Both the position numbers and the translations under genes were made by a program. A stretch of 64,000 bases of DNA, taken from the NCBI GenBank assembly GCA_040755495.1, contig JBFMAT010000005.1:35545-99544 (forward strand), given 5' to 3'. This stretch comes from Chloroflexota bacterium (GTDB taxonomy: Bacteria; Chloroflexota; Limnocylindria; Limnocylindrales; CSP1-4). Of this stretch, positions 3,188-64,000 are shown one piece after another (position 1 is the stretch's first letter; the number at the start of each line of letters is the position of its first letter). A model generated the notes under the pieces. It did no database searches and was not told where the DNA came from. It saw only the letters and a list, made by a program, of their open reading frames with translations.

Positions 3188-3239
3188 CGATCCCGGGCCG
3201 GGCCAGGCCAGTCGATCCCCTGATGCACCAAGGAGCAGC

Positions 3240-4574
3240 ATGACCCGCCTGTTCGGCACGGATGGAATCCGAGGCGCGGCGAACGTCGACCTTCGGCCGT
3301 CGCTCGCCTTCGCCCTCGGCCGGGCGACGGCCCATCACCTGGTGGGCCCCGGCGGGGCGCTCGTGGTCGGCCAGGACACGCGGCGCTCCGGCGACATGTT
3401 CGTGTCCGCGATCACCGCCGGCGCCACGAGCATGGGCGTCGACGTCCACCGGGTCGGCGTCGTGCCCACCCCGGCGCTCGCGTTCCTGGCCGGCACCGGC
3501 GACTTCGCGGCCGGGATCATGGTGTCGGCCTCGCACAACCCGGCCGAGGACAACGGCCTCAAGGTGCTCGACCCGCGCGGCCTCAAGCTGGACGACGACG
3601 TCGAGGACGAGCTGGAGGCCGTGATCCTCCGCGCCGACGAGCTGCCGGGCGTGCCGCCGGCGGGCATCGGGCGCGAGGTCGATGCGCGCGGGCTGCTGGA
3701 CCGCTACCTGGCCCACCGGTCCGGGCTCGCCCGGGCCGTGCGCGGGAGCGGGCTCCACGTCGTGCTCGACGCCGCCAACGGCGCGGCGCACCAAGTGGGG
3801 CCGGAGCTGCTGCGGGCCACCGGCGCCCGCGTCACGGTGATCCACGACGCGCCCGACGGCGACAACATCAACCTGGAGTGCGGCGCAACCCACCCGGCCT
3901 CGCTCGCCGAGGCGGTCACGGCGCTGGGCGCCGACGTGGGCTTCGCGCTCGACGGCGACGCGGACCGGTGCGTCGCGGTGGACACCGACGGGCAGCTCGT
4001 GGACGGCGACCAGGTCCTGGGCATCCTCGCCCTCGAGCGGCTGGCCCGGGGCGCGCTCGACAACGGCAGCCTCGTCGTGTCCGTGCTGTCCAACGGCGGG
4101 CTCCAGCACGCGGTCGAGGCCGCCGGCGGACGGATCGTCCGGACCCCTGTCGGGGACAAGCACATCCTGGCGGCGATGCTGGTGTCCGGCGCGGGCCTGG
4201 GCGGCGAGAAGAGCGGGCACGTGATCGTCCGCGAGCACACGACCTCGGGCGACGGGATCGTGACCGCCCTCGAGCTGCTGCGCGTCATGACCGCGGCCGG
4301 CTCCGGCCTCGGGGCGCTCGCCGTCGCCGTCCCGCTGCTGCCGCAGCAACAGCGGGCGATCCGGGTCCGGCACCGCGACCAGTGGGACAACGACGACGTC
4401 CTGCGGCAGGCGATCGTGGACGCGGAGGCGAGGCTGGCCCCGGACGGAAGGATCCTCGTCCGGCCGTCGGGCACCGAGCCCGTGCTCCGGGTGATGGTCG
4501 AGGGTCACGACGCCGCCGAGGTGGTCGAGATCGCCGACGCGATCGCGACGCTCGCAGGGGAGCGTCTACACTAG
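3240..4574 (+). CDS. glmM: Phosphoglucosamine mutase
   Basis: LFGTDGIRG, SASHNP, DGDADR, GGEKSGH and RPSGTEP motifs; AAGGAG RBS. Confidence 0.97.
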   Translation: MTRLFGTDGIRGAANVDLRPSLAFALGRATAHHLVGPGGALVVGQDTRRSGDMFVSAITAGATSMGVDVHRVGVVPTPALAFLAGTGDFAAGIMVSASHNPAEDNGLKVLDPRGLKLDDDVEDELEAVILRADELPGVPPAGIGREVDARGLLDRYLAHRSGLARAVRGSGLHVVLDAANGAAHQVGPELLRATGARVTVIHDAPDGDNINLECGATHPASLAEAVTALGADVGFALDGDADRCVAVDTDGQLVDGDQVLGILALERLARGALDNGSLVVSVLSNGGLQHAVEAAGGRIVRTPVGDKHILAAMLVSGAGLGGEKSGHVIVREHTTSGDGIVTALELLRVMTAAGSGLGALAVAVPLLPQQQRAIRVRHRDQWDNDDVLRQAIVDAEARLAPDGRILVRPSGTEPVLRVMVEGHDAAEVVEIADAIATLAGERLH

Positions 4575-10478: not shown

Positions 10479-12089
10479 GTGAGCAGCGAACCCCGGGCCT
10501 TCGCCACGGTCGATCAGGGCACGGCCACCGTCGCCGTCTCGCTGCTGGGTCGCTTGGACGGGCGCTGGCGACTGCTGGGATCCACCGCCGCGCCGGCCAG
10601 CGTCCCGGCCGACGCGCTGCTCCACCGGCTCCGGGCGCGCCTCGACGCCGCCGATCCCGGCCTCGCGGCAGGCGTGGGCCTCGCCGCAGCCGAGGCCGTC
10701 GCGGACCTGCCGCGGGTCGAGTCCCGCACGACCCCGCCCCCGGTCCTCGTGGTGGTGGCGGCCACCGAGCGCGTCGTGCGGCCGCTGGCGGCCGCGGCCG
10801 CGACGGCCGGCTGGCGCGTCCGCGCCATGGCCCTCGAGGGCGCCGAGATCCTGTCCATCGCGTCGGCGCTCGCGGACCCGTCGGTGACCGCGGTGCTGGC
10901 CGGTGCCTCGGACCCGCCGGGCGCGGACGAGCGGCCGCTGGTCGGCGAGCTCGCCGCCCTGGCCGCGGCGGCGACCCAGCGACGGCCGGACCTGGTCCTC
11001 GTGCTCGCCGGCGGCATGTCGGACGCCGTGAACCGGACCGGCCTGCCGGTCGCGCACGACCGGCCCGGGGCCACGCTGCTCGCGCCGGCGGTGGCGACGG
11101 CGGACGGCGCTCGCCTCCGCGAGCTCCTCGACGGTGTTCGCGGCGGGGCGTCGGACGGCCGGCGAGCCCTGGCCACGTCGACGGCCACGCTGGCCGAGGT
11201 GCTCCGCCGGCGGATCGAGGTCGTCGAGGTCGGCCAGTCGGCGGGTGCGCGGGTCGCGGCCGCGTGGGCGCCCGGGGCCCCGGCGGTGTCCGTGACCTGG
11301 GCGACCGTCGCCGGCGCCGCGCTCATCCCGCCGGGCGCCGACGACACCGTCGTGGACGAGATCGCGGGCTGGCTCGCGGCACCCCTCGACCGGCTGCGCC
11401 TGCGGGACCGGCTGCGCGAGCTCGCGGTGGCACCGTGGGGCGACGCCACCGGCGAGGGCGCCCAGGTCAGGCTCGCCGCCGCCCGGGCCGCGGTGGCCCG
11501 GCTCGCCGGGGCGACGCCGGCCTTCGACGCCCTGCCGGCCCCCGACCTCGTGGTGGCCGCGGGCGGGGCCTGGTCGGTCGCCCCGGGGCCGGCAGTCGCG
11601 CTCGCGCTGGCCGACGTGCTGCGCCGGCCGGGCGTTCGCGCGCTCGGGCTGGACCACGCGAGCCTGCTGGGGCCGCTGGGCACGATCGAGGACGAGGCCG
11701 AGCGGCGGCGCGTCGTCGCGGACCTGCGCGACGAGCTGCTGCTGCCGCTGGGCAGCGTGCTGATGCCCGGCGCGCTCCGGGCCGGGCACTCGGCCGGCCG
11801 ACTCGGCATCGTGGCCGCGGACGGTCCCGTGGAGCTCGACCTCGTCCCCGGCGGGCTGGAGCTCGTGGACCTGCCGCCGGGCAGCCGGGCCATCGTGGAC
11901 GTGCGCTTCCGCGACACGGTTGACCTCGGGCTGCGCGGGCGGCAGTTCGCGCTCGAGGTCGCCGGCGGCCTCGGCGGGCTGCTCGTCGACCTGCGGGGCA
12001 TCCCGATGCGCCTGCCCGACCGCCTCGAGCGGCGGCGCGAGCTGCTGGCCGCGTGGCAGGGGGCGCTTTGGACGGGGGTCGACGCGTGA
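10479..12089 (+). CDS. Glutamate-mutase-L (GlmL/MutL)-like, actin-fold protein
   Basis: N-terminal VDQGTATV (ASKHA-like phosphate loop), EVVEVGQS, DLVVAAGG and C-terminal GGLGGLLVDLRGIP, which resemble the GlmL-like family. Confidence 0.65.
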   Translation: MSSEPRAFATVDQGTATVAVSLLGRLDGRWRLLGSTAAPASVPADALLHRLRARLDAADPGLAAGVGLAAAEAVADLPRVESRTTPPPVLVVVAATERVVRPLAAAAATAGWRVRAMALEGAEILSIASALADPSVTAVLAGASDPPGADERPLVGELAALAAAATQRRPDLVLVLAGGMSDAVNRTGLPVAHDRPGATLLAPAVATADGARLRELLDGVRGGASDGRRALATSTATLAEVLRRRIEVVEVGQSAGARVAAAWAPGAPAVSVTWATVAGAALIPPGADDTVVDEIAGWLAAPLDRLRLRDRLRELAVAPWGDATGEGAQVRLAAARAAVARLAGATPAFDALPAPDLVVAAGGAWSVAPGPAVALALADVLRRPGVRALGLDHASLLGPLGTIEDEAERRRVVADLRDELLLPLGSVLMPGALRAGHSAGRLGIVAADGPVELDLVPGGLELVDLPPGSRAIVDVRFRDTVDLGLRGRQFALEVAGGLGGLLVDLRGIPMRLPDRLERRRELLAAWQGALWTGVDA

Positions 12090-13111
12090 CGGCGCACGAC
12101 TGGCGGGCCGAGATCCCGTCGCGCCCGTTCGTCGAGGCCGGGCTCGAGACCCACCTGCCGCTGCCGCCCGGCGACCGCGCGCTGGTCGAGACGGGCACGG
12201 AGCTGGCACCCGGCGACCCGCTGCTCGAGCACCTCCGCGACGCACGGATCGACGAGGCCGACGTGCGGTCGTCGGTGGGGGCGCCGCCGCCGGTCGCCGG
12301 CACGCGCTGGTCGCCCACGCTCGCGACGGGCCGCTTCCGCCGCGGCCGGCCGGAGCTCGAGGGCGAGTTGCTGGCGCCGGTCGCCGGCCAGCGGGACCGC
12401 TGGCGGATCGTGGTCGGGGACCACCGGTCGGTCGGCACGTCGCCGGTCGGCGGACTGGTCGTGGACGTTCGGCCGGGCGCCGAGGTCCGCATCCGCGTCG
12501 CCGGGCTGGCGGTGCGCGGCGCGATGGCCGCCGGCGCCTCCGCGCGCGGGCGGCTGGAGCTCGCGACCGACCCGTTCGGCGACCTGCGGCCGGGCGGAAT
12601 CGACGTCGGCCGGGCCGGCAGCATCCTGGTCGTCGGCTCGCGCATCGACGCGGAGGCCCTCACGCGCGCCCGGGCGATGGGGGTGCGCGGGATCGTCGTC
12701 GCCTCGCTGCCGGGCAAGGAGCTGCGCGACTTCCTGGCCTCCGAGCGGCGCCAGCGGGCGGCCCTCCACCCCGCACCGCCGTTCGGGCTGCTGGTCCTCG
12801 ACGGCACGCTGCGGCGCCCGATCGCGTCGCCGATCGCCGAGCTGTTCGAGCGCCTGGCCGGGCGGGAGGTCGCGCTGCTCGTGGACCCGCCGGCGCTCGT
12901 GTTCGACGCCCCGGACGTGGAGCTGCCGGCGATCGACCCCGACTGGGTGCGGTTGCGCAGCGGTCCCACCGCGGGCGCCGAGGGTCGCGTGACCGGCCTC
13001 GCGGGCCGTCGCCGGTTCGCGGCCGGCGTGATGCTCGAGGCCGCGTGGGTCGAGATCGACGGCGAGCCGCCCGTGGACACGCCGCTCGGCGACCTCGAGC
13101 GCCTCGTCTGA
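12086..13111 (+). CDS. Conserved hypothetical partner of the GlmL-like protein
   Basis: GTGA overlap; ALVETGTELAPGDPL barrel-sandwich-like segment; ARAMGVRGIVVASL. Confidence 0.7.
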   Translation: MTAHDWRAEIPSRPFVEAGLETHLPLPPGDRALVETGTELAPGDPLLEHLRDARIDEADVRSSVGAPPPVAGTRWSPTLATGRFRRGRPELEGELLAPVAGQRDRWRIVVGDHRSVGTSPVGGLVVDVRPGAEVRIRVAGLAVRGAMAAGASARGRLELATDPFGDLRPGGIDVGRAGSILVVGSRIDAEALTRARAMGVRGIVVASLPGKELRDFLASERRQRAALHPAPPFGLLVLDGTLRRPIASPIAELFERLAGREVALLVDPPALVFDAPDVELPAIDPDWVRLRSGPTAGAEGRVTGLAGRRRFAAGVMLEAAWVEIDGEPPVDTPLGDLERLV

Positions 13112-13174
13112 CGGCACCCCGCGCGCGCCCGGTGCGGCGGCGTCGGGTCCCGGCTTCGGCTACCCTCGGCTCCG

Positions 13175-13648
13175 ATGTCCACCCCCGTCCTCGCCGAGCG
13201 CGTCGTCCGCACGCACGACCCAGCCGCCACGCGCGCGCTCGCCGCGCGGCTGGCGGCCGTCGCGCGGCCCGGTGACCTGGTGTGCCTCGTGGGCGACCTG
13301 GGCGCGGGCAAGACCGTGTTCGCCAAGGGGTTCGCCGAGGGCCTCGGCATCCGGGACACGGTCAACTCGCCCTCGTTCGTGCTGATGGCCGAGTACGCGG
13401 GGCGGCTGCCGATGTTCCACCTCGACCTGTACCGCCTCGGCGACGCCGCGGACGCCCTCGCCGGCGGGCTGCTCGACGACCGCCAGGCCGAGGGCGTGGC
13501 GGTGGTGGAGTGGGCGGAGCGCCTGGGCGAGGCGCTGCCGGCCGGACGCCTGGACGTGGTCATCGACGGCACCGGCGACGACGAGCGGCGGATCACGCTC
13601 CGGGCCGGAGAGCCCGGCTACGCGCGGTACCTGGGAGCCGCCGCATGA
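13175..13648 (+). CDS. tsaE: t6A biosynthesis ATPase
   Basis: GDLGAGKT, VNSPSF, HLDLYRL, VVEWAE. Confidence 0.96.
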   Translation: MSTPVLAERVVRTHDPAATRALAARLAAVARPGDLVCLVGDLGAGKTVFAKGFAEGLGIRDTVNSPSFVLMAEYAGRLPMFHLDLYRLGDAADALAGGLLDDRQAEGVAVVEWAERLGEALPAGRLDVVIDGTGDDERRITLRAGEPGYARYLGAAA

Positions 13649-52984: not shown

Positions 52985-54553
52985 CTACCAGCTGAAGGTG
53001 GCGGTGTAGTCGATCGGGCCGCCGGTGAACGTGAACGTGCCCACGAAGCGGAACTCGTAGATGCCCGGCGGGGTCATCGGGAACACCGGCAGGGCCCACT
53101 CGAACACCGGGTCGACCGGCGTCAGCGACTGGGCCGGCTGCGCGGCGTCGCGGACGGACCAGGAGAAGCCCGCGACCTGCTCGGCGAACACGAGGTTGAC
53201 GCCCAGCAGCTTCGCCTCCCGGGAGGACACGAGGGCGGCGAACCCGTAGTAGCCGGGAGCCGGGTTGACCGGGTCGCCGAAGAACTCCGCGTTGTCGGCC
53301 CAGGTGAGCACGGGGCGCAGGGCGTGGAACTCGAACGTGACGTCCGCGAACGGCGCGACGTTGTCGTTGGGCGGGCGGACGCTCGCCTCCCAGGTCACGC
53401 TGCCGGTGGCGTCGTTGGGCACGGTCAGCGGGCCGGGCGAGGTGAGGACCTCGCAGGTCGGGTCGCGGTCGGCCGGCCCGAGGCACAGCCGGAGGCCGTT
53501 GCCGTCGTCGCCGCTCACCCGGTTGAGCAGGAACGTGACGTCGCCCGGGCCGTCGGTGGTGAACGTGAACCGGGGGTTCATCCGGTTCCTGGAGATGCCC
53601 TCGCGGCGGTTGCCCGTGTCCTCCAGCTCGAAGTCGAGGAACTGGATCCGGGCGAGCGGCGCGGTCGGGACGGGGGGCGGGGTGACGCCCGGGCTGGCCT
53701 CTGCGCTGGCCGACGGCGGGGCGCTGGAGGGCTCCGCCGAGGCCGGGGCGCTGGGCTCCGGGGTCGGGCTGGCCACGGCCCGCGACGGGGGCGGGGTGGC
53801 GGTCGCCTCCGGGGCGAACGGCCCGAGCTTGCCGAGGAACGCGCCGGCCCCGAGGACGAGGGCGACGACGCCGACGCCGGCGACGGGCGGGATCCAGCTC
53901 GGCAGCAGCGCACGCTGGTTGAGCGTGGCGCGCAGCTGGATCGGCGCCTGGCGCCCGGGCTCCACGCTCACCGTGAAGGGCCGGGAACGGTTCGGCCCGA
54001 ACGGGAACGGGTCGTCCACGGCGACCGACACGCGGAACGCCGCCCGCGCCTCGGGGGCCACGATCGCGCTGGGCGGCTGCACGCCGAGCGTCAGCCGGCG
54101 ATCCGGGTCCGTGGCGCTGACGGCCACGTCCACCGGCGCATTGCCGCGGTTGTCCACGAGGACCTCGTGGCGGCCGGCGCGGCTGCCGCGCGACGTCTGG
54201 GGCACGATCTCGGCGGCGACGTCCGGGAACGGCGTGACGGTGACCCGCCCCTCCTCGACCGCGGAGCCGGCCGGGTTGGCGGCCGGCCGCACGCGCACGC
54301 CGAACGGGTGGACCCCCGCCCGCGGCTGGCTGGCCCGGGGTGGGGCGAAGGTGAGCACGACCGCGCCCTCGGCGCCGGGGAACAGCGACAGCGACGCCGG
54401 GTCCACGGTCACCCAGCCCGCGGTGGGGCCGACGACATCGACGTCGAAACGGTCGACGATCGAGCCCGTGTTGCGGACGCGAAGGGTGGTCACGGCCCGG
54501 CTGCCGGGATCGACGGTGAGCTCGGCGGGTGACAGGGTGGAGATCGCGCTCAT
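52985..54553 (-). CDS. CIS-associated bitopic protein with Ig-like N-terminal domains
   Basis: Two beta-rich domains (LRVRNTGSIVDRF; VDNRGN), TM WIPPVAGVGVVALVLGAGAFL, Pro/Ser linker and a beta-rich C-terminus. Confidence 0.65.
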   Translation of the reverse strand: MSAISTLSPAELTVDPGSRAVTTLRVRNTGSIVDRFDVDVVGPTAGWVTVDPASLSLFPGAEGAVVLTFAPPRASQPRAGVHPFGVRVRPAANPAGSAVEEGRVTVTPFPDVAAEIVPQTSRGSRAGRHEVLVDNRGNAPVDVAVSATDPDRRLTLGVQPPSAIVAPEARAAFRVSVAVDDPFPFGPNRSRPFTVSVEPGRQAPIQLRATLNQRALLPSWIPPVAGVGVVALVLGAGAFLGKLGPFAPEATATPPPSRAVASPTPEPSAPASAEPSSAPPSASAEASPGVTPPPVPTAPLARIQFLDFELEDTGNRREGISRNRMNPRFTFTTDGPGDVTFLLNRVSGDDGNGLRLCLGPADRDPTCEVLTSPGPLTVPNDATGSVTWEASVRPPNDNVAPFADVTFEFHALRPVLTWADNAEFFGDPVNPAPGYYGFAALVSSREAKLLGVNLVFAEQVAGFSWSVRDAAQPAQSLTPVDPVFEWALPVFPMTPPGIYEFRFVGTFTFTGGPIDYTATFSW

Positions 54554-54671
54554 CCGGCGCAGTCTACGCAACCGGCCGCCCTCCGCGTCGACGAACGCGC
54601 GACCGGCGGGGTGATTGCGACGGGTCGCTAGACTGTGCGACCCGGACAGGCCGGCGGGATGGAGGGCGCGC

Positions 54672-56096
54672 GTGATTGTCTGCAAGGTGTGCGGGACCGA
54701 GAACGAGCAGGGGGCGGGGTTCTGCGGCTCGTGCGGGGCGTTCCTCGAGTGGAGCGGCGAGCCCGTCACGCCGGACGACGCGCCCACCGAGCGGTACCAG
54801 CCGGTCCCCGCGCCGCCGCCGTCGCCGTCGCCGGATGCCGCCCCTACCGAGCGGTACGAGCCGGTCGCGGACGCGGGCCTGCCGGCCGGTCCCGGTCAGC
54901 TCGTGTGCCCGTCCTGCGGCCTGGCCAACGAGTCGACGCGGGTCTACTGCCGGCGGTGCGCTGCGGAGCTCGCCCCAGCGACGGCCGCCGCCACGACCGT
55001 GGTGTCCGCGGAGCCGCCGCGCGTCCGCTCGGGACCGCCCGTGGCGATCCTCGGGGGCGTCGCCGCGGTCGCGCTCCTCGGGGCGGTCGGCCTGTTCGTC
55101 CTGCTGCCCCGTGGCACGCCCACGCCGAGCCCGGACGTGACGGAGTCGGCGCCGGTGGCGGTCACGACGTCGCCCGAGGCGCCGGCGAGCGATCCCGTGG
55201 GGCCAGCGTCGGGCGAGCCGCCGACCGCGCCACCGAGCGCGCCGCCCACCGAGCCACCGTCCGTGCCGCCCACGCTGGACTCGCTGACGGGGCTCCTGGT
55301 GTTCGCGGCGGTCGAGGACGGGAACGCGGACCTGTGGATCTGGGACCCGGCCGACGACAGCCTGCGGCGGCTGGTGAAGGGACCCGGCAGCCAGACCGAG
55401 CCCGCCTGGGCCCCGGACGGCTCGGCCGTGGTGTACCGCGCGCCCGATGGGCTGCGGATGGTGCGCGCCGACGGCGAGCGGTTCGAGCCCCCGGACTTCA
55501 CCCACCACGACCGCGACCGCAACCCGACCTGGTCACCGGACGGCAGCCGGATCGTGTTCGCCACCGACCGCAACCCGTTCGGCAGCCTCAACATCGTCGC
55601 GCGCCCGGCCGGCGACAACGAGGCGGACCTCGACGTGCTGGTCACCAACAGCGGCGACGACTGGGACCCGGCCTTCTCGCCCGACGGCTCGACGATCGTG
55701 TTCGCCTCCACGCGCCGGGGCGACGCCACGCTGTACCTGATGAACGCGGACGGCAGCACCGAGCGCGCCGTGGAGCTGGGTCCCGGCTACTACGACGACC
55801 CGACGTTCTCGCCCGACGGCGAGTGGCTCGGGTTCACCCGGCGGGATGACGCGAAGGCACAGAAGGACCTGTGGGTCGCCCGCGTCGACGGCTCGGAGAT
55901 GCGCCGGCTGACGTCGACGCCGGCGAACGAGAACGACCTCGCCTGGTCGCCGGACGGCCGCGTGATCGTGGTCGCCCGGGCCGACGACGACGGGCGGCTG
56001 GTGGCGATCGATGTCGCGACGGGCGACGAGATCGGCGACATCGGCGTCGACGGTGCCCGCAACGGCCACCCCGACTGGTGGTGGCCGGACCGCTGA
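54672..56096 (+). CDS. Double zinc-ribbon / TM / TolB-like (PD40) beta-propeller protein
   Basis: CKVCG..N..G..FCGSCG and CPSCG..N....YCRRC; TM; repeated P(A/T)(W/F)SPDG motifs; GGAGG RBS. Confidence 0.85.
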   Translation: MIVCKVCGTENEQGAGFCGSCGAFLEWSGEPVTPDDAPTERYQPVPAPPPSPSPDAAPTERYEPVADAGLPAGPGQLVCPSCGLANESTRVYCRRCAAELAPATAAATTVVSAEPPRVRSGPPVAILGGVAAVALLGAVGLFVLLPRGTPTPSPDVTESAPVAVTTSPEAPASDPVGPASGEPPTAPPSAPPTEPPSVPPTLDSLTGLLVFAAVEDGNADLWIWDPADDSLRRLVKGPGSQTEPAWAPDGSAVVYRAPDGLRMVRADGERFEPPDFTHHDRDRNPTWSPDGSRIVFATDRNPFGSLNIVARPAGDNEADLDVLVTNSGDDWDPAFSPDGSTIVFASTRRGDATLYLMNADGSTERAVELGPGYYDDPTFSPDGEWLGFTRRDDAKAQKDLWVARVDGSEMRRLTSTPANENDLAWSPDGRVIVVARADDDGRLVAIDVATGDEIGDIGVDGARNGHPDWWWPDR

Positions 56097-56292
56097 CGAG
56101 TGCGGGCGGGAGGGACACGGCCCGGCCCAGGTACTTTCGTTCTCGGGGGCGCGACGGGGTAGACCCGCCGGGGTCGCGGTGCCACCATAGGCGCGACCTG
56201 CGCCCATGGGGGACGAGGACAGACGGCGGAGGGTTGCATTGCCCGAAGGGCGCAACGGAGATCGGACGGGCCGAGGTCCCGGACACGAGGGC

Positions 56293-59241
56293 GTGCCGGC
56301 GGTGGTGCCCGCCAAGATCCGCGTCCCGGTTGCCGAGGCGCTCCCGCGCGAGCGCCTCGAGAGCCGCCTCGATGCGGCGTGGCGTCATCGCCTGACGCTG
56401 GTCATCGCGCCCGCCGGCTCGGGCAAGACCACGCTGGTGGCCCGGTTCGCGGCCGCGTCGGGGGTGCCGGTGGCGTGGTACCGGGCGGAGACCTGGGACG
56501 CCGACGAGGGCTCGCTCGTCCGCCACCTCGAGGCCGCGCTCCTCGGCGCGCTGCCGGGCCTGGCGGGCGGCTGGACGACGGTGGAGGACGCCGCCCGGGC
56601 CCTCGAGGCCGGCCCGGTCCCGGCTGCGCTGCTGGTCATCGACGACGGGCACGCCCTCGAGGGGACGGCCGCCGAGGCGGCCCTCGGCCGGTTCGTGGAC
56701 TACGCGCCGCCGTGGCTCGCCGTCGTCGTCGCCGGCCGGGTCCCACCGTCGTTCAACCTGCCCCGGCTCCGGGTGTCGGGCGAGCTCCTCGAGCTGGGCA
56801 CGGACGACCTCCGCTTCCGGGCCTGGGAGGTGGAGCAGCTGTTCCGCGACGTCTACCACGACCCGGTGCCGCCCGCGGACCTCGCCACGCTCGCCCGACG
56901 GATCGAGGGCTGGGCCGCCGGGCTCCAGCTGTTTCACCTCGCGACGCGGGGCCGCTCGGTGGAGGAGCGCCGGCGCGTCCTGGGCGTGACCGGCGGCAGC
57001 GGGCGGCTGCTCCGCGAGTACCTGGCCCAGAACGTGATGTTCGGGCTGCCGGAGGAGCTGCGCCGGTTCCTCGTGGACACGTGCGTCCTGGGCCGGCTGT
57101 CCGGGCGGCTGTGCGACCGGCTGCGGGGCGCGTCCGGCAGCGGCGCCCTCCTCGACGAGCTGGCGCGGCGCGGCGTGTTCACCGTCCCGGTGGAGGACTC
57201 CGACGACGCCTACCGCTATCACGAGGTCCTGCGCGGCCACCTGGACCGGATGCTGGTCGAGGAGATCGGCGAGATCGGTGCCCGCGAGCGGCACGCTCGG
57301 GCCGGCGCGCTGCTGGAGGCGGAGGGGGCCTTGCCCGAGGCCCTCCGCGCGTACTGCCGGGCGGAGGACTGGGAGGCCGTGCGGCGCCTGCTGGGCGGCC
57401 AGGGCGAGCGGCTCGCCGCCGGCGGCGGCTCGTGGGTCGATGCCGTGCCGCCGGCGATCGAGCGCCACGATCCCTGGGTCGCGCTGGCCGCCGCGCGCCG
57501 GGCGCGCAACGACGGGCGGTGGCCGACGGCGGTCGACGCGTATGTCCGCGCGGAGACGGTGTTCGGTCCCGGCCGCGCCGCCGACGCCCCGCGCCACGAG
57601 CGCCTGGCCCTCACGGCCTGGATGGACCCGGCCGCGATCCCGCCGCCGGACGCCTCGGGGGTGCTGCGCTCGGGTCTCGTGCGCGAGCCGGCGGCGGCCG
57701 TGCGGGACCTCGCGCGGGTCGTGGACCCGGCGGCGCCGGTCGCCCGCGGGCTGCTCGCGCTGGCGGCGGGCGAGGTCGTGGCGGCACGACGCCTGCTGAC
57801 CGCCGCCGCGGACTCCCCGGACGCCGCCGATGCAGGTCGGCTGCCGGTCGCGGCGGCGCGCCTGGGCGCGGCGGTGGCCGCGGTGCTGGCGGGCGAGGCG
57901 TGGGACGGACGGGCCTTCGATCGAGCCGCGGAAGAGGCGGAGCGAGCCGGCGTGCCGTGGCTCGCGCGGCTGGGCCGGGAGCTCGGACGGCGCCTGGACC
58001 CGTCGGCCGGGGCGTCGGACGGCGAGGCGGATGGTGCCGGCGATGCGGTCGGCGCCGAAGCCTGGAGCGGCGCGCTGCTCGCGCTGGCGACCGCCTGGAG
58101 CGCCGCGGACCCCGATGCCGGGCTGGCGGCCGCGGAGTCGGCGGCACGCGGCTTCCGCAGGCTCGGGGCGGGCGTGCCCGAGGCGTGGAGCCGCGCCCTG
58201 GCCGCCGCCGCGATCGTCCGGACCGGGGCGCCCGACGCGCGCGAGGCCGCGCTGGCCGCCGAGAGCCTCGGCCGCGCGACCGGCACGCCGGCCGCACGGA
58301 TGCTGGCCTACGCGGCGCTCGGGCGGGGCGCGGGGGGCCGGGGCGCGGAGTACGCCCAGCTCGCGGACGCCGTCCGCGCCGACATCGGCCTCGCGCTGCC
58401 ACCCGCGCTCGTTGCCGGCCGGCCGGATGGCCCGTTCGAACCCGCCGGTGCCGCCACGCCCGCCGCATCCGAGGGGGAGGCAGGCCGCGCCGATGCCACC
58501 GCGCCGGTCAACGCCAGCGTGCGCATCCGGACGCTGGGCGGCTGCGGCCTCGACGTGGACGGCCGGCGTGTCTCGCTCGACCGCGCCAAGCCGCGCGTCC
58601 GGTCGCTGCTGCGGCTGCTCGCGATCCACGCGGGCGCCCCGGTCCATCGCGAGGTCATCCAGGAGGCCCTGTGGCCGGAGGCCGACGCCGATGCCGGCGC
58701 CCGCAGCCTGCACGTCGCCGTGTCCGCGCTGCGGCGGCTGCTCGACGAGGTGGCCCAGCCGGTCGGTGGCCGGCTCGTCGTGCGGGACGGGGACGCCTAC
58801 CGGCTCGGCATCCCGCCCGACGCCGTGGACCTCGGCAGGTTCGACCGCGCCATCGTGGAGGGCCGCGCCGCCCGCTCGCGGGGAGAGGTGTCAGCGGCGG
58901 CGTTCTCGCTGGCGCTGGAGCTGTACGCGGGTGAGCTGCTGCCCGAGGAGGGGCCCGCCGACTGGGTCATCGAGCGTCGCGAGCACTACCGGTCGAAGGC
59001 GATCGAGGCCGCGATCGGCCTCGCCGAGGAGGCGATGCTGGCCGCCGATTACGCGACCACCGTGCGCGCCTGCCGCTTCGGCCTCGAGCTGGACCGCTAC
59101 CAGGACACCCTGTGGCGGATGCTCATCGACGCCCGCGACCGGGCCGGGGATGCCGGCGCGGCCTCGCGCGACCGCCGGGAGTACGCGTCCGTGCTGGAGG
59201 GCCTGGGCGTCGAGGCGCCGGTCGCGATCAGCCCGTTCTGA
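56293..59241 (+). CDS. MalT-like ATPase / wHTH / BTAD (SARP-type) transcriptional regulator
   Basis: APAGSGKTT, LVIDDGH, IEGWAAGL, YRYHEVLR; C-terminal IRTLGG...LWPE, LELYAGELLPEE (BTAD). Confidence 0.88.
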   Translation: MPAVVPAKIRVPVAEALPRERLESRLDAAWRHRLTLVIAPAGSGKTTLVARFAAASGVPVAWYRAETWDADEGSLVRHLEAALLGALPGLAGGWTTVEDAARALEAGPVPAALLVIDDGHALEGTAAEAALGRFVDYAPPWLAVVVAGRVPPSFNLPRLRVSGELLELGTDDLRFRAWEVEQLFRDVYHDPVPPADLATLARRIEGWAAGLQLFHLATRGRSVEERRRVLGVTGGSGRLLREYLAQNVMFGLPEELRRFLVDTCVLGRLSGRLCDRLRGASGSGALLDELARRGVFTVPVEDSDDAYRYHEVLRGHLDRMLVEEIGEIGARERHARAGALLEAEGALPEALRAYCRAEDWEAVRRLLGGQGERLAAGGGSWVDAVPPAIERHDPWVALAAARRARNDGRWPTAVDAYVRAETVFGPGRAADAPRHERLALTAWMDPAAIPPPDASGVLRSGLVREPAAAVRDLARVVDPAAPVARGLLALAAGEVVAARRLLTAAADSPDAADAGRLPVAAARLGAAVAAVLAGEAWDGRAFDRAAEEAERAGVPWLARLGRELGRRLDPSAGASDGEADGAGDAVGAEAWSGALLALATAWSAADPDAGLAAAESAARGFRRLGAGVPEAWSRALAAAAIVRTGAPDAREAALAAESLGRATGTPAARMLAYAALGRGAGGRGAEYAQLADAVRADIGLALPPALVAGRPDGPFEPAGAATPAASEGEAGRADATAPVNASVRIRTLGGCGLDVDGRRVSLDRAKPRVRSLLRLLAIHAGAPVHREVIQEALWPEADADAGARSLHVAVSALRRLLDEVAQPVGGRLVVRDGDAYRLGIPPDAVDLGRFDRAIVEGRAARSRGEVSAAAFSLALELYAGELLPEEGPADWVIERREHYRSKAIEAAIGLAEEAMLAADYATTVRACRFGLELDRYQDTLWRMLIDARDRAGDAGAASRDRREYASVLEGLGVEAPVAISPF

Positions 59242-59255
59242 CCGGAGGGGCCGCC

Positions 59256-59810
59256 TCAGGGGTTGACGGTGACCCGGATCGTGGCGGTCAGGTTGCGCTC
59301 GACGCCGCCGCAGGTCCCCTCGGCGAAGCTGGCGACCGCGGTGATGTCCCAGGTGCCCGGCGGCAGGTGGACCTCCGGGTCGGCGAAGAACTGCTCGTAG
59401 AAGGCGGCGTTGGGGTCCTCTGCGCCCCAGCCGCCGGACTTCCGGATCCCGCTCGTGATCGGCGCCTCGGCACCGACCGTGTAGCGTACGCAGTCGGCGG
59501 TCATGGCGAACCCCATCCGCCGGGTGCCGCCGACCTCCGTGAAGCTGAAGCCGAGCGGACCGCCACCCGACGCGACGATGCCGGCATCGAGCCCGTCGGT
59601 CGTGCCGAGGGTCGCCGTCGCGGTGATGGCGTCGGCCGTCGTGAACGTCGTCCGCGGGAGCTCGAAGGTCAGGACGAAGCGGCCCTCGATGTCGGTGGCG
59701 CTCGCCACGGCCGCCGACGCCGAGGGAGTCGGCGCCGGGGTGCTCGACGGCGCAGGGCCACCGCACGCCGCGATGACGAGGGCGATGAGCATGAGTGTCA
59801 GCCGTCGCAT
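59256..59810 (-). CDS. Hypothetical lipoprotein
   Basis: MRRLTLMLIALVIAAC lipobox, then a Ser/Pro linker and a beta-rich domain. Confidence 0.75.
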   Translation of the reverse strand: MRRLTLMLIALVIAACGGPAPSSTPAPTPSASAAVASATDIEGRFVLTFELPRTTFTTADAITATATLGTTDGLDAGIVASGGGPLGFSFTEVGGTRRMGFAMTADCVRYTVGAEAPITSGIRKSGGWGAEDPNAAFYEQFFADPEVHLPPGTWDITAVASFAEGTCGGVERNLTATIRVTVNP

Positions 59811-60010
59811 GGCCAATCCCCACCCTGTCTCGAGGTCCGTTCGGTCGCCGGTCCGACGCCTCCCGGGAGCGGCCCATAGTGTCGCCCACGGCGGGCGATC
59901 CTGCACGACCGCGTCATCCGGGCCGATTGGGCCTTGCCCGGCGGCGTGGTGCGGCTACGGTTGCGACGATGAGGCGCGGAGCCTCGACGAGCCTCCAGGA
60001 GATTCGGGCG

Positions 60011-60268
60011 ATGACCGGCGCGGGCACCAGGGAACCCTGCCTCGGATGCGGTGAGGAGACGGCCGCCGGGAGCGCGTTCTACTCGGATCGCCGAGTCGTC
60101 GAGGGATCCGATGGCTCGCGGGTCTTGGTCTGCTCGTCCTGCGTCCAGCGGGCGGCCGCACGACGCCGTGGCCGCCGCCTGACCGACCGGGAGCTCCGTG
60201 ACATGGTCGACAACGGGTCGATGGCGGCGATCACGTGGGGGAACGCCGGTCTCGGCCCCGGCATCTGA
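60011..60268 (+). CDS. Small zinc-finger protein
   Basis: CLGC...CSSC; AGGAG upstream. Confidence 0.55.
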   Translation: MTGAGTREPCLGCGEETAAGSAFYSDRRVVEGSDGSRVLVCSSCVQRAAARRRGRRLTDRELRDMVDNGSMAAITWGNAGLGPGI

Positions 60269-60298
60269 GCCCCGGCCCCGGCGAACCCCGGGAGCCGG

Positions 60299-62458
<2,160 letters not shown>

Positions 62459-62536
62459 GCACGCACTCCCAGGGTCATGGGTGGGTCGCGCAGAGGATAG
62501 ACGCCTTGTGAGTCGCGCGGGAGGTCCGGTTCACGA

Positions 62537-62729
62537 GCGGGCCTCACAGGCCCGCGTTTCGGGTCGAAGCGCGGGCCGGGGGCTCTGCGGCGCCCCCTCG
62601 CGTCGATGGCGGGCCTGACAGGCCCGTTGGAGCCTCGAGGAGGTCGCGGCCACGGGCTTGGGGCCGGAATGCGGGCCTCACAGGCCCGCCGGAAGCTTCG
62701 GGAGGCTCGGAGGAAGGTCGACAGGCCCG
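62537..62729. repeat. Second REP-like family CGGGCCT-N3-AGGCCCG
   Basis: Copies at 62537, 62609 and 62671, plus a half copy at 62721. Confidence 0.75.
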
Positions 62730-62786
62730 GTGGAACCTCCACGAGGGCCCGGAGGTCGGCCCCGGAGCAGGCAACAGCTCCCGGCG

Positions 62787-63347
62787 TCATCCCTTGGCGG
62801 CCCCGCCACCCTTGACGATCTCGATGCGATGCATCACGTGGGCGGGCTTGGCCGTCGCGACGAGGGCGTCGAGCCGCTGGGCGTCGACCCCCTTGGGATC
62901 GGGGACCGTGACCCGCACGACCACCAGCGGCTCCGGCGAACCGGGCAGCTCGCCGCCCGGGTCCACGGACCAGCCGGTCGCGCCGTTCTCCACGATCTCG
63001 ACGCGACCCCCAGTCTGGATCTCGACCTGGCCGGCGAGGCCGAGGGCCGTCCCGCGCATCCGGTACAGGTCGACCGCCCGCGCCACGATTGCGCGGCGCC
63101 GGTCCACGTCCCACGACTCGTCGAGCGCGATCCCCACCCAGCCGCCGAGCCAGGCGAGGAAGTCGTCCGGCGTGAGGTGCGGGTCGAGGTACGCGTCGAA
63201 GTTGTCGAGCGTGCTGTAGACCGGCGCCATGACGTCGTCCAGGCCCGCCAGCAGGCGCTGGGCGAAGTCGTCGTCCTGGTACAGGGCGGGGAGCGCCGGC
63301 CCCAGCGGGTGCGGCGTCCCCAGCCCGGCGACGAGGCCGCGCATCAC
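62787..63347 (-). CDS. Phage tail protein I-like baseplate wedge protein of a contractile injection system
   Basis: LPALYQDDDFAQRLLAGLDDV, YLDP...FLAWLGGWVG, LYRMRGTALGL, KPAH. Confidence 0.9.
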   Translation of the reverse strand: MMRGLVAGLGTPHPLGPALPALYQDDDFAQRLLAGLDDVMAPVYSTLDNFDAYLDPHLTPDDFLAWLGGWVGIALDESWDVDRRRAIVARAVDLYRMRGTALGLAGQVEIQTGGRVEIVENGATGWSVDPGGELPGSPEPLVVVRVTVPDPKGVDAQRLDALVATAKPAHVMHRIEIVKGGGAAKG

Positions 63348-64000
63348 GCGCCCTCGACGAGCACCTGGTGCTCGTAGCTGAACACGAGGGCGTGGGCCTC
63401 GAGCTCCAGGCGCGGCGTCTGCTGGCCGCGCTGGCCGGTCACCGGGTCGGCGCCGAACAGACGCGCGTCCTCGACCAGCTCGGTCCCGCGGATCCCCTGG
63501 AGCACCGAGTAGACCTCGCCCACGTTCACCGGGCGCCCGAACGGCCAGCCGGTCCCGTCGGGGCCGCCGGTGATCGGGTTGAAGTACTCGTACAGGGCGG
63601 CCAGCGCCTCCTCCTGGAGCCGGGTGGGGTTGACCCGGTTGCGGGCCTTGAGCTTGGCGACCACGGTGATCCCGCGGTACACGGGCGGCTCGATGATCGC
63701 CCGGGTCCCGATGACCCGGCTCTCCTCGAGCCGGTCGGTGATCTTCTGCAGGGTGTCCTCGTTGGGGACCAGCTGGTCGAACCGCAGGCGGCCCTGCTCG
63801 GATACCGCGGAGGGCACGATGAGCACCCGCACCGAGCCGGCGTCGGCGCCGTCGCCCGCGGCCACGGCCCGCACCCGGGCGACCTCCGGGGCCGCCTCGC
63901 GGGCGAGCTGCTCGTAGTCCTCGGTCGTGACCGCGCGCCCCCTGGCGCGGAGCCGGATCGGGCCGCGGACCTTGGCGTTCTCGATGTCCTCGCCGTCGAC
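63344..64000 (-). CDS. Putative baseplate assembly protein (gpJ/Afp11-like), C-terminal part
   Basis: RAVTTEDYEQLA, ERLEESRVIGT-like segment, YFNPITGGPDGTGWPFGR; continues beyond the window. Confidence 0.9.
   Translation of the reverse strand, partial: VDGEDIENAKVRGPIRLRARGRAVTTEDYEQLAREAAPEVARVRAVAAGDGADAGSVRVLIVPSAVSEQGRLRFDQLVPNEDTLQKITDRLEESRVIGTRAIIEPPVYRGITVVAKLKARNRVNPTRLQEEALAALYEYFNPITGGPDGTGWPFGRPVNVGEVYSVLQGIRGTELVEDARLFGADPVTGQRGQQTPRLELEAHALVFSYEHQVLVEGA

What the first reader, a model, noticed from the sequence alone, without database searches (positions are those of the whole stretch)
52985..64000. Distal end of a Streptomyces-like contractile injection system with an expanded set of membrane accessory proteins
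Seen: baseplate and tail-I-like genes followed by three bitopic proteins, a lipoprotein, a small Zn finger and a MalT/BTAD regulator. Established: in Streptomyces coelicolor the cytoplasmic CIS has baseplate genes followed by the membrane adaptor CisA and a dedicated regulator. Inference: a cytoplasmic or membrane-recruited CIS in a probable Chloroflexota host, with several alternative membrane sensors.
Basis: partly seen in the sequence, partly recalled or inferred. Interest (0 to 1): 0.65.

Follow-up and report, generated by a model that had tools for sequence, protein, structure and literature searches.

The report
Streptomyces-type injection system, Chloroflexota host
This is the baseplate end of a phage-tail-like "contractile injection system" of the Streptomyces type in an uncultured soil Chloroflexota bacterium, and the membrane proteins beside it are relatives of the two accessory families already studied in Streptomyces, plus a swapped-domain copy and a tightly linked regulator.

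Summary
On the minus strand the window ends with cis11 (Baseplate_J) and cis12 (Tail_P2_I). The rest of the system lies on the contig end and on two other contigs that synteny joins (C44 -> C68 -> C5). There is no capsid or terminase.

- **60299-62458:** a true CisA (SCO4242) homologue. It has two zinc ribbons joined by a ~247-residue (Pro-Glu)n tether, one TM helix and a discoidin/CBM32-like outer domain. It follows cis12 in 57/57 related loci.
- **56206-59241:** a MalT-like ATPase with a C-terminal SARP domain, convergent downstream in 63/65 loci.
- **54672-56096:** a CisA paralogue with a TolB-like propeller as outer domain (13/58 loci).
- **52985-54553:** a homologue of Sco4256-4258, which Casu 2023 reported as CIS effectors, so it is not an obvious sensor.
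- **Lipoprotein:** a real gene, but absent from all 80 related loci.
- **"Small Zn finger":** not a separate gene; it is the N-terminus of the CisA homologue.

In 151 genomes of the host class, CisA-like and Sco4256-like genes occur in exactly the 9 genomes that have cis11. The host is Limnocylindrales (Chloroflexota).

Verdict: a new variant of a known system, of moderate interest.

The parts
63344..64000 (-). cis11 (baseplate J-like wedge protein). The C-terminal 218 aa are in the window; the full 648-aa gene runs 1290 nt past the window end.
   Evidence: Pfam Baseplate_J 2.6e-8 for the window part and 7.3e-17 for the full gene. 54% identical over 647 aa to S. rubrogriseus Cis11.
62787..63347 (-). 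cis12 (Tail_P2_I, 186 aa). Its GTG start overlaps the cis11 stop by 4 nt.
   Evidence: Pfam PF09684 3.6e-13. 47% identical to the S. rubrogriseus homologue.
62459..62786 (.). cis12-cisA intergenic region carrying 3-4 copies of the palindrome GCGGGCCTSACAGGCCCGC at 62-72 nt spacing.
   Evidence: the repeat finder families D1/D2 and inverted repeats I1-I3. Probably a copy of this genome's intergenic hairpin repeat family and not specific to the CIS.
60299..62458 (-). CisA homologue, 719 aa. In order: Zn ribbon 1 (aa 4-21), (Pro-Glu)n tether (DNA 61499-62240, ~123 hexamer units), Pro-rich stretch, Zn ribbon 2 (aa 456-473), a PWWRRIF motif, a TM helix (~aa 535-553) and a discoidin/CBM32-like outer domain (aa ~598-714).
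   Evidence: Pfam Zn_Ribbon_1/DZR. NCBIfam NADase_discoid 4.2e-12, above its cut-off. TRF period 6. BLASTP E=5e-13 against the S. rubrogriseus protein at the SCO4242 position. In the AF2 model the CTD has pLDDT >90, and Foldseek returns APC10/CBM32/F5-8C folds. It sits next to cis12 in 57/57 loci.
59256..59810 (-). Lipoprotein, 184 aa: a real gene but not a CIS component (a lineage-specific insertion between cisA and the regulator).
   Evidence: Lipobox. 884 representative clusters at E<=1e-3. No tblastn hit in any of 80 related loci. In relatives the cisA stop and the regulator stop are <300 nt apart in 48/63 loci.
56206..59241 (+). STAND-type regulator, 1011 aa: an N-terminal MalT-like ATPase and a C-terminal OmpR-type winged helix + BTAD (a SARP module at the C-terminus, the reverse of the AfsR order).
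   Evidence: Pfam AAA_22/AAA_16, Trans_reg_C 2.4e-8, BTAD 1.6e-6. NCBIfam MalT 6.6e-53 over aa 33-401. A homologue lies convergent downstream of cisA in 63/65 loci.
54672..56096 (+). CisA paralogue with a swapped outer domain, 474 aa: Zn ribbon 1, Zn ribbon 2, TM helix, Pro-rich linker and a TolB-like PD40 beta-propeller. The GTG start has GGAGG 6 nt upstream.
   Evidence: Pfam PD40 6.6e-35 and Zn ribbons. TIGR02800 propeller_TolB 1.5e-36. Its N-terminus is 52% identical to that of the 719-aa protein. Start codon. Present together with the 522-aa gene in 13/58 loci. One full-length relative lies in a CIS-negative genome (G092).
52985..54553 (-). Sco4256-4258-family protein, 522 aa: two N-terminal ASH/PapD-like Ig domains (aa 1-215), a TM helix (aa 221-242), a disordered Pro/Ser linker and a variable all-beta C-terminal domain (aa ~300-521).
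   Evidence: Pfam Cep192_D3 7.1e-8. BLASTP E=6e-49, 38% identity over aa 1-300, against the S. rubrogriseus protein at the sco4256 position. hhalign probability 100%. AF2 model and Foldseek hits. Strong hits occur only in the 9 cis11-positive genomes out of 151.

Best explanation
**What it is.** The region is the baseplate-distal end of a type IId contractile injection system (the S. coelicolor CIS-Sc type) in a Limnocylindrales (Chloroflexota) genome.

**Shown here**
- The gene after cis12 is an orthologue-grade homologue of CisA.
- The 522-aa gene is a homologue of Sco4256-4258.
- The PD40 protein keeps the CisA cytoplasmic double zinc-ribbon module but has a TolB-like propeller in place of the discoidin-like outer domain.
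- A MalT-ATPase/SARP regulator is almost invariably linked to cisA in this lineage.
- The whole set is present only in genomes that have the CIS.

**Inferred by homology with Streptomyces** (PMC12237407, PMC10066040)
- The particle assembles free in the cytoplasm.
- The CisA homologue sits in the membrane with its zinc ribbons and (Pro-Glu)n tether inside and its glycan-binding domain outside. On an envelope or stress signal it recruits the baseplate (Cis11) to the membrane and permits sheath contraction, which kills the producing cell.
- The Sco4256-like protein is needed for a loaded, functional particle.

**Inferred from domain content alone**
- The STAND regulator switches the locus on when its ATPase domain binds a signal.
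- The PD40 paralogue offers a second input with a different outer domain.
- The lipoprotein is a bystander.
For: **The system is complete and is not a prophage.**
- On C5 beyond the window: gp25, VgrG-like spike, CIS_tube+LysM and a gp19 tube.
- On C68: sheath, tube, Cis15 AAA+ ATPase, Cis16 (Pvc16_N) and an eCIS_core protein.
- The contig order C44 -> C68 -> C5 is shown by synteny with the near-complete genome G137. One 677-aa G137 gene matches the C68 end with its N-terminus (1e-38) and the C5 end with its C-terminus (4e-16).

**CisA homology.**
- P0094 (S. rubrogriseus, 468 aa, the length given for CisA) lies directly after Tail_P2_I and before a hydrolase gene and an MsiK-like ABC gene.
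- It has the same domain order: ZnR1, linker, ZnR2, PWWRRLF, TM, NADase-type domain.
- It aligns with the window protein at E=5e-13.

**Linkage.**
- 57/57, 63/65 and 13/58 loci, as given in the observation check.
- The same arrangement is seen in Kribbella and in metagenome contigs.

**Presence and absence in 151 genomes of the host class.**
- cis11 is in 9 genomes.
- Full-length CisA-like genes are in the same 9, with a second paralogue in 7 of them.
- Strong Sco4256-like hits are in the same 9.

**Actinomycetes sample of 201 genomes.** Sco4256-like genes are in 22 genomes, strong cis11 hits in 20, and both in 19. They are 1.6-35 kb apart in all 14 genomes where both lie on one contig.

**Sco4256 homology.**
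Against: - Nothing here shows expression, assembly, localisation or firing. The cytoplasmic mode and the roles of each protein are carried over from Streptomyces.
- CisA-to-window identity is only 29% over the conserved part.
- The eLife paper describes the CisA outer domain as similar to solute-binding proteins. My model of the window protein, and Pfam/NCBIfam for both proteins, give a discoidin/CBM32-type sandwich. That agrees with the 2023 paper's 'sugar-binding domain'.
- The presence/absence match may only reflect that the locus is gained and lost as one block.
- The PD40 paralogue is in a minority of loci, and one relative occurs in a cis11-negative genome. Its tie to the CIS is therefore weaker.
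- No regulator of this type was seen next to the Streptomyces cluster.
Confidence: 0.8

Rival explanations
1. Both bitopic families are envelope sensors or triggers, not an adaptor plus effectors. Each has a conserved cytoplasmic CIS-docking module (a double zinc ribbon in CisA-like proteins, tandem ASH Ig domains in Sco4256-like proteins) and an interchangeable outer domain that reads the state of the cell wall. This is essentially the first reader's 'alternative membrane sensors'.
For: - Both families show the same pattern: a conserved N-terminal part, one TM helix and a variable outer domain.
- CisA-like outer domains are discoidin-like or PD40.
- Sco4256-like proteins have at least three unrelated C-terminal domains in Limnocylindrales (alignment A2). 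In Streptomyces they carry ChW or ricin lectin domains (PMC10066040). These are typical extracytoplasmic glycan- or wall-binding modules.
- No signal peptide precedes the N-terminal modules, so the variable domains should face outward.
Against: - Casu 2023 reports that Sco4256-4258 are toxic in E. coli and that the triple mutant has mostly empty tube lumens. That fits cargo.
- No binding or sensing data exist for any member.
Confidence: 0.25
2. The system is a released extracellular CIS or tailocin, and the discoidin-like protein encoded at the tail-fibre position is its receptor-binding protein.
For: - The gene occupies the position where eCIS loci encode tail fibres (PMC12237407).
- Its outer domain has a lectin-type fold.
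- No other fibre gene was found.
Against: - The protein has N-terminal zinc ribbons without a signal peptide and a single TM helix, so it should be anchored in the producer's membrane.
- Its Streptomyces homologue is a membrane protein and is absent from purified particles.
- Related IId systems in Streptomyces, Chloroflexota and Deinococcota were imaged in the cytoplasm.
Confidence: 0.07
3. The genes beyond cisA (the regulator, the PD40 paralogue and the 522-aa protein) are merely neighbours carried on the same variable island and have no functional tie to the CIS.
For: - The PD40 + 522-aa pair is present in only 13/58 loci.
- A PD40-ZnR relative lies in a cis11-negative genome.
- The lipoprotein shows that unrelated genes do insert here.
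- IS elements sit at these junctions in G137.
Against: - The regulator is kept in 63/65 loci across Limnocylindrales, Acidimicrobiales and unclassified Actinomycetota MAGs.
- The 522-aa family is a homologue of a genetically validated CIS component and is absent from all 142 cis11-negative class genomes at strong E-values.
- A second CisA-like + PD40 + Sco4256-like set flanks the other end of the locus and recurs in Kribbella.
Confidence: 0.1

Closest known systems
CIS-Sc, the cytoplasmic type IId contractile injection system of Streptomyces coelicolor (SCO4242-4260; Casu 2023 PMC10066040, Vladimirov 2023 PMC10020575, Casu 2025 PMC12237407)
   Same: - The same core genes in the same order: cis16/cis15 divergent from sheath, tube, then cis1b, cis7, cis8, cis9, cis11, cis12, cisA.
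- Cis11 is 54% identical.
- No tail-fibre gene is present.
- An eCIS_core protein and Sco4256-like genes are in the cluster.
   Different: - The host is Chloroflexota (Limnocylindrales).
- A ~680-aa Pro/Ala-rich gene lies between the tube genes and cis1b.
- There are three CisA-family and two Sco4256-family paralogues, at both ends of the locus.
- A MalT/SARP regulator is convergent with cisA, and a LuxR-type regulator lies on the other flank.
- Annexin-repeat proteins lie beside cis15.
CisA (SCO4242), the membrane protein needed for CIS-Sc contraction and firing
   Same: - Its gene lies directly after cis12.
- Same architecture: ZnR1, low-complexity linker, ZnR2, PWWRR(I/L)F motif, single TM helix, ~160-aa NADase-type/discoidin outer domain ending in ISEIEFF.
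   Different: - 719 aa rather than 468 aa, because of a ~247-residue (Pro-Glu)n tract.
- Only 29% identity.
- The zinc ribbons are not mentioned in the Streptomyces papers (no occurrence of 'zinc').
- A paralogue carries a PD40 propeller instead of the discoidin-like domain.
Sco4256, Sco4257 and Sco4258, reported CIS-Sc-associated effectors
   Same: - A highly similar N-terminus, one TM helix and a variable C-terminal domain.
- Encoded in CIS clusters and absent from CIS-negative genomes.
- 38% identity over 300 aa.
   Different: - The C-terminal domain in the window protein is an uncharacterised all-beta domain, not ChW or ricin.
- This copy lies beyond the regulator, not between the sheath gene and cis15. 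A second copy, on C44, is nearer that position.
Chloroflexota/Deinococcota clade of IId CIS (Roseiflexus, Thermus-like strains; Gaisin 2026, PMC12998442)
   Same: A IId CIS in Chloroflexota. In that clade the particles were imaged free in the cytoplasm.
   Different: That paper reports no close cisA homologues in Roseiflexus, whereas every Limnocylindrales locus examined here has one. I did not compare sequences with Roseiflexus.
MalT/LAL-type STAND regulators and AfsR/SARP regulators
   Same: A MalT-like NTPase domain, plus an OmpR-type winged helix with BTAD.
   Different: - The SARP DNA-binding module is at the C-terminus, after the ATPase. No LuxR-type HTH was found.
- Scores are far below the equivalog cut-offs, so it is neither MalT nor AfsR.

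Membership tests
Type IId / CIS-Sc-like contractile injection system | Core set present: sheath, inner tube, tube initiators, VgrG-like spike, gp25, baseplate J, Tail_P2_I, AAA+ ATPase (Cis15), cap (Cis16) | tested here: met
   Pfam hits on C5 and C68. The contigs are joined by synteny and by a gene that spans the gap.
Type IId / CIS-Sc-like contractile injection system | No phage head, terminase or lysis module adjacent; no conventional tail fibres | tested here: met
   Flanks are PPDK and a ferredoxin-reductase-like gene on one side. On the other side are regulators, Ig/PD40 proteins and housekeeping genes on C44. Only Pfam scans of called ORFs were run, not a full prophage search.
Type IId / CIS-Sc-like contractile injection system | Falls in clade IId in a sheath/Afp11 phylogeny (Chen 2019 scheme) | not tested
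   No reference set of other eCIS classes was available. Placement rests on 54% Cis11 identity and identical gene order with the Streptomyces cluster that PMC12237407 calls IId.
Type IId / CIS-Sc-like contractile injection system | Particles assemble and fire inside the producing cell | not testable with these tools
   Needs cryo-ET or fractionation.
CisA (SCO4242) family | Encoded immediately downstream of the baseplate genes cis11/cis12 | tested here: met
   328-nt gap after cis12 in the window. 57/57 related loci.
CisA (SCO4242) family | Bitopic: long low-complexity N-terminal region, one TM helix, conserved C-terminal domain | tested here: met
   Hydropathy, TRF and the AF2 model, which shows a helix followed by a confident beta-sandwich. 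Topology itself is predicted, not measured.
CisA (SCO4242) family | Sequence homology of the C-terminal domain to Streptomyces CisA | tested here: met
   BLASTP E=5e-13 against the S. rubrogriseus protein at the SCO4242 position. Both match NADase_transloc/NADase_discoid. The S. coelicolor sequence itself was not available; the 468-aa S. rubrogriseus protein was identified by position and length.
CisA (SCO4242) family | Required for sheath contraction and CIS-mediated cell death | not testable with these tools
   Genetic and cryo-ET phenotype only.
Sco4256-4258 family | Shared N-terminal domain, single TM helix, variable C-terminal domain | tested here: met
   Alignment A2, AF2 model, BLASTP E=6e-49, hhalign probability 100%.
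Sco4256-4258 family | Encoded in CIS clusters and absent from CIS-negative genomes | tested here: met
   Strong hits in 9/9 cis11-positive and 0/142 cis11-negative class genomes. Actinomycetes sample: overlap 19 of 20/22, and 1.6-35 kb apart on shared contigs.
Sco4256-4258 family | Toxic on expression; needed for a filled tube lumen | not testable with these tools
   Experimental properties from PMC10066040.
AfsR/SARP regulators | N-terminal OmpR-type DNA-binding domain + BTAD, followed by NB-ARC/TPR in the large members | tested here: not met
   Here the ATPase is N-terminal and Trans_reg_C + BTAD occupy aa 795-1004. NCBIfam SARP score is 17 against a cut-off of 500. It works like a STAND/SARP hybrid but is not a member of the AfsR architecture.

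The most novel reading that the evidence does not exclude
CisA-like and Sco4256-like proteins may be two modular families of membrane triggers for cytoplasmic injection systems. Each would pair a conserved inner docking module (a double zinc ribbon, or tandem ASH Ig domains) with interchangeable outer wall- or glycan-binding domains (discoidin-like, PD40 propeller, ChW, ricin and others). A cell with several paralogues, as here, could then fire its CIS in response to several different envelope insults. On this reading the published 'effectors' Sco4256-4258 would be receptors or triggers at least as much as cargo. The MalT/SARP regulator would add a cytoplasmic ligand checkpoint.
Probability: 0.2. 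Interest if true: 0.7.

Novelty: new variant of a known kind. Interest (0 to 1): 0.5.

Why it matters
How a cytoplasmic injection system is told to fire is the main open question for the Streptomyces-type CIS. This locus and its ~130 relatives bear on that question in four ways.

- **Range.** The two accessory families known from Streptomyces extend to another phylum. A recent paper found no close cisA homologue in Roseiflexus, another Chloroflexota lineage.
- **Conserved parts.** The most conserved parts of CisA are two zinc ribbons and a PWWRR motif on the cytoplasmic side. These are obvious candidates for the proposed Cis11 contact, and the Streptomyces papers I read do not mention them.
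- **Natural domain swaps.** Discoidin-like versus TolB-like propeller domains, and several C-terminal domains in the Sco4256 family, can guide chimera experiments.
- **A regulator.** The tightly linked STAND regulator gives a handle on when the system is made.

None of this changes the basic picture of the system. It is a useful comparative extension, not a surprise.

Tried and rejected
- **Host.** I first guessed Actinomycetota from the 74% G+C. I rejected that because same-genus and same-family genomes carry Limnocylindrales/Chloroflexota record titles.
- **Is the 719-aa ORF real?** High-GC shadow frames on the plus strand look coding. I kept one ORF because ZnR1, linker and ZnR2 are in frame in all relatives and in Streptomyces CisA.
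- **Separate small Zn-finger gene.** None exists.
- **Lipoprotein as a component.** Rejected.
- **Solute-binding-protein fold for the CisA outer domain.** Not recovered; Foldseek gives APC10, CBM32 and F5/8C folds.
- **Tool failures and limits.**
  - The Streptomyces and Kribbella sp. records behind L102 and L018 are not held as genomes. The sco4256-position gene was reached instead by a second look-up of encoding contigs.
  - 'of' needs a G handle.
- **Literature.** No paper links Limnocylindria to contractile injection systems.
- **Not attempted.** A search for SARP binding repeats, expression data, and a sheath/Afp11 tree with outgroups.


Full report
**Gene content.** The window has about 74% G+C, so ORF lists are full of shadow frames. 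I used codon-position G+C to pick the real frames. From the window end, the genes are:
- minus strand: cis11 (Baseplate_J), cis12 (Tail_P2_I), a 719-aa zinc-ribbon protein and a lipoprotein;
- plus strand: a 1011-aa regulator and a zinc-ribbon/PD40 protein;
- minus strand: a 522-aa protein with a Cep192_D3-like Ig domain;
- then pyruvate phosphate dikinase.

The region holds only four CxxC...CxxC ribbons. Two are in the 719-aa protein and two in the PD40 protein.

**The adjacent sequence.** The window is C5:35545-99544 of a 3.74-Mb, 112-contig genome.
- The 5 kb beyond the window encode the rest of cis11, then gp25, a VgrG-like spike, CIS_tube+LysM and a gp19 tube. The contig ends there.
- The only sheath gene is on contig C68. 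It sits with a tube gene, a Pvc16_N cap protein, an AAA+ ATPase with a winged-helix domain, an eCIS_core protein and two annexin-repeat proteins.
- In the near-complete same-genus genome G137 the genes of C44, C68 and C5 are contiguous, in the order C44 -> C68 -> C5 reversed.
- One 677-aa G137 gene matches the end of C68 with its N-terminus and the end of C5 with its C-terminus.
- The locus is therefore one complete contractile injection system split by assembly gaps. No capsid or terminase was seen on either flank.

**Host.** Cis11 homologues occur in 9 of 151 genomes of the host's class, all in one family. G137 is CAVUFD01, G062 is CAWGWF01, G119 is DATGGQ01 and G125 is JANXWH01. Their titles read Candidatus Limnocylindrales, Chloroflexota or "uncultured Chloroflexia".

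**The 719-aa protein is a CisA homologue.**
- A database search found relatives with the same build. All three whose contigs I looked up lay next to Tail_P2_I, including in Kribbella, where the gene sits between cis11 and cis12.
- A second search reached many Streptomyces proteins that NCBI names "NADase-type glycan-binding domain-containing".
- One of these, P0094 from S. rubrogriseus, is 468 aa, the length given for CisA. It lies directly after Tail_P2_I and before a hydrolase gene and an MsiK-like ABC gene. That is the SCO4242 position described in PMC12237407.
- Its sequence shows ZnR1, a low-complexity linker, ZnR2, PWWRRLF, a TM helix and an NADase-type domain ending in ISEIEFF. The window protein has the same order and aligns with it at E=5e-13.
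- The window protein's outer domain passes the NCBIfam NADase_discoid cut-off. It folds with pLDDT above 90 into a sandwich whose best PDB matches are APC10/DOC1, CBM32 modules and F5/8 type C domains.
- Its linker is a 742-nt hexamer array that encodes about 247 residues of Pro-Glu.

**Linkage across genomes.** An alignment of ZnR2-TM-CTD (A1) found 134 relatives among species-representative genomes. The best 80 loci are mostly Limnocylindrales, with some Acidimicrobiales, Thermoleophilia, unclassified Actinomycetota and Kribbella koreensis. tblastn with the window's proteins gave the following:

| Feature | Loci with feature / loci evaluable |
|---|---|
| cis12 and cis11 directly upstream | 57/57 |
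| Regulator homologue convergent downstream | 63/65 |
| PD40 paralogue together with the 522-aa gene beyond the regulator | 13/58 |
| Lipoprotein | 0/80 |

The lipoprotein is nevertheless a real gene of a large family.

**The 522-aa protein is a Sco4256-4258 homologue.**
- Alignment A2 shows a conserved ~215-residue N-terminal part, a TM helix and at least three unrelated C-terminal domains.
- The model has two confident ASH/PapD-like Ig domains, a helix at aa 221-242 and an all-beta C-terminal domain.
[quoted passage not shown] The authors report toxicity in E. coli, empty tube lumens in the triple mutant and a phenotype like the CIS deletion.
- I reached that part of the S. rubrogriseus cluster. 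After the sheath gene come a 982-aa gene, an eCIS_core gene, a 479-aa ChW protein and a 481-aa ricin protein.
- The 479-aa protein aligns with the window protein at E=6e-49, with 38% identity over 300 residues. The profile comparison gives probability 100%.
- In an actinomycete genome with 70% Cis11 identity to S. rubrogriseus, the homologue lies between cis15 and the sheath gene.

**Presence and absence.**
- Host class, 151 genomes: strong hits to the 522-aa family and full-length CisA-like genes occur in exactly the nine cis11-positive genomes. A second CisA paralogue is present in seven of them. Other hits are generic zinc ribbons.
- Actinomycetes sample, 201 genomes: the Sco4256-like family is in 22 genomes, strong cis11 hits are in 20, and both are in 19. 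Where both lie on one contig they are 1.6-35 kb apart, in 14 of 14 cases.
- These counts are not independent events, because the locus is clearly gained and lost as a block.
- The PD40 paralogue is less tightly tied. Full-length relatives are in three cis11-positive genomes and one cis11-negative genome.

**The other flank.** On C44, next to a LuxR-type response regulator, lie three more accessory genes:
- a second Sco4256-like gene;
- a secreted PD40 + Ig protein;
- a third CisA-family gene, with a clear NADase_transloc domain (1.8e-14).

The same trio accompanies the Kribbella locus and the loci of G137, G062, G038 and G119.

**The regulator.** Its first 400 residues match MalT's ATPase region (6.6e-53) and its last 210 carry Trans_reg_C + BTAD. 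This order is the reverse of AfsR-type SARPs. I found no such gene beside the Streptomyces cluster, and neither Streptomyces paper mentions a regulator.

**Mechanism.**
- Shown: homology, architecture and linkage.
- Inferred from Streptomyces work: cytoplasmic assembly; CisA-dependent recruitment of the baseplate to the membrane followed by firing; and a requirement for the Sco4256-like proteins.
- Inferred from sequence only: the zinc ribbons and PWWRR motif as the cytoplasmic contact; the (Pro-Glu)n tract as a long acidic spacer; the outer domains as wall or glycan readers; and the STAND regulator as a ligand-gated activator.

**Comparison with the literature.** Gaisin 2026 showed IId systems in Chloroflexota and Deinococcota and noted that Roseiflexus has no close cisA homologue. 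No paper in the library links Limnocylindria with these systems.

**Verdict.** This is a new variant of a known system. It is well supported as to what it is, and of moderate interest.

Noticed in passing
window 62459-62786: The cis12-cisA spacer holds 3-4 copies of the palindrome GCGGGCCTSACAGGCCCGC, 62-72 nt apart. It looks like a copy of the ~150-nt multi-hairpin intergenic repeat family that earlier agents described in this genome.
   Followed up: partly
L005 (contig C68) 806-3199(-), 4123-5724(+), 3257-4105(-): Two annexin-repeat proteins (one also with PG_binding_1) and an eCIS_core/DUF4157 protein lie beside cis15/cis16. Annexin domains are unusual in bacteria, so these are candidate cargo. 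Among the close relatives examined, homologues were seen only in G137.
   Followed up: partly
L107 (contig C44) ~11139-13280(-); L018 11844-14354(-): A secreted protein with PD40 repeats and C-terminal ASH-type Ig domains accompanies the Sco4256-like and CisA-like genes in both Limnocylindrales and Kribbella. The Streptomyces papers I read do not discuss it.
   Followed up: partly
L018 10001-11296: In Kribbella sp. the CisA homologue is encoded between cis11 and cis12, not after cis12. Kribbella koreensis appears to have two CIS loci (two Cis11 hits, on C13 and C3).
   Followed up: no
L007 (G137) 2660-3933 and 12099-13349: Transposase genes are inserted between cis12 and the cisA homologue, and between the PD40 paralogue and the 522-aa gene, in the closest complete relative. 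The PD40 gene there also carries an internal TAA, so that copy may be decaying.
   Followed up: no
window 59256-59810: The lipoprotein belongs to a large family with no Pfam or NCBIfam match (884 representative clusters). The family occurs both as ~185-aa single-domain proteins and as 2-4 tandem repeats in longer proteins.
   Followed up: partly
G092:C4:510858-512078: A 41%-identical relative of the PD40 paralogue, lacking the first zinc ribbon in the aligned part, sits in a genome of the same family that has no cis11 hit.
   Followed up: no
L006 12217-14250; C68 end and C5 end: A ~680-aa Pro/Ala-rich gene lies between the tube genes and cis1b, where a tape-measure protein might be expected. 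The Streptomyces paper says its cluster lacks a tape-measure gene. In this genome the gene is broken by the assembly gap.
   Followed up: partly
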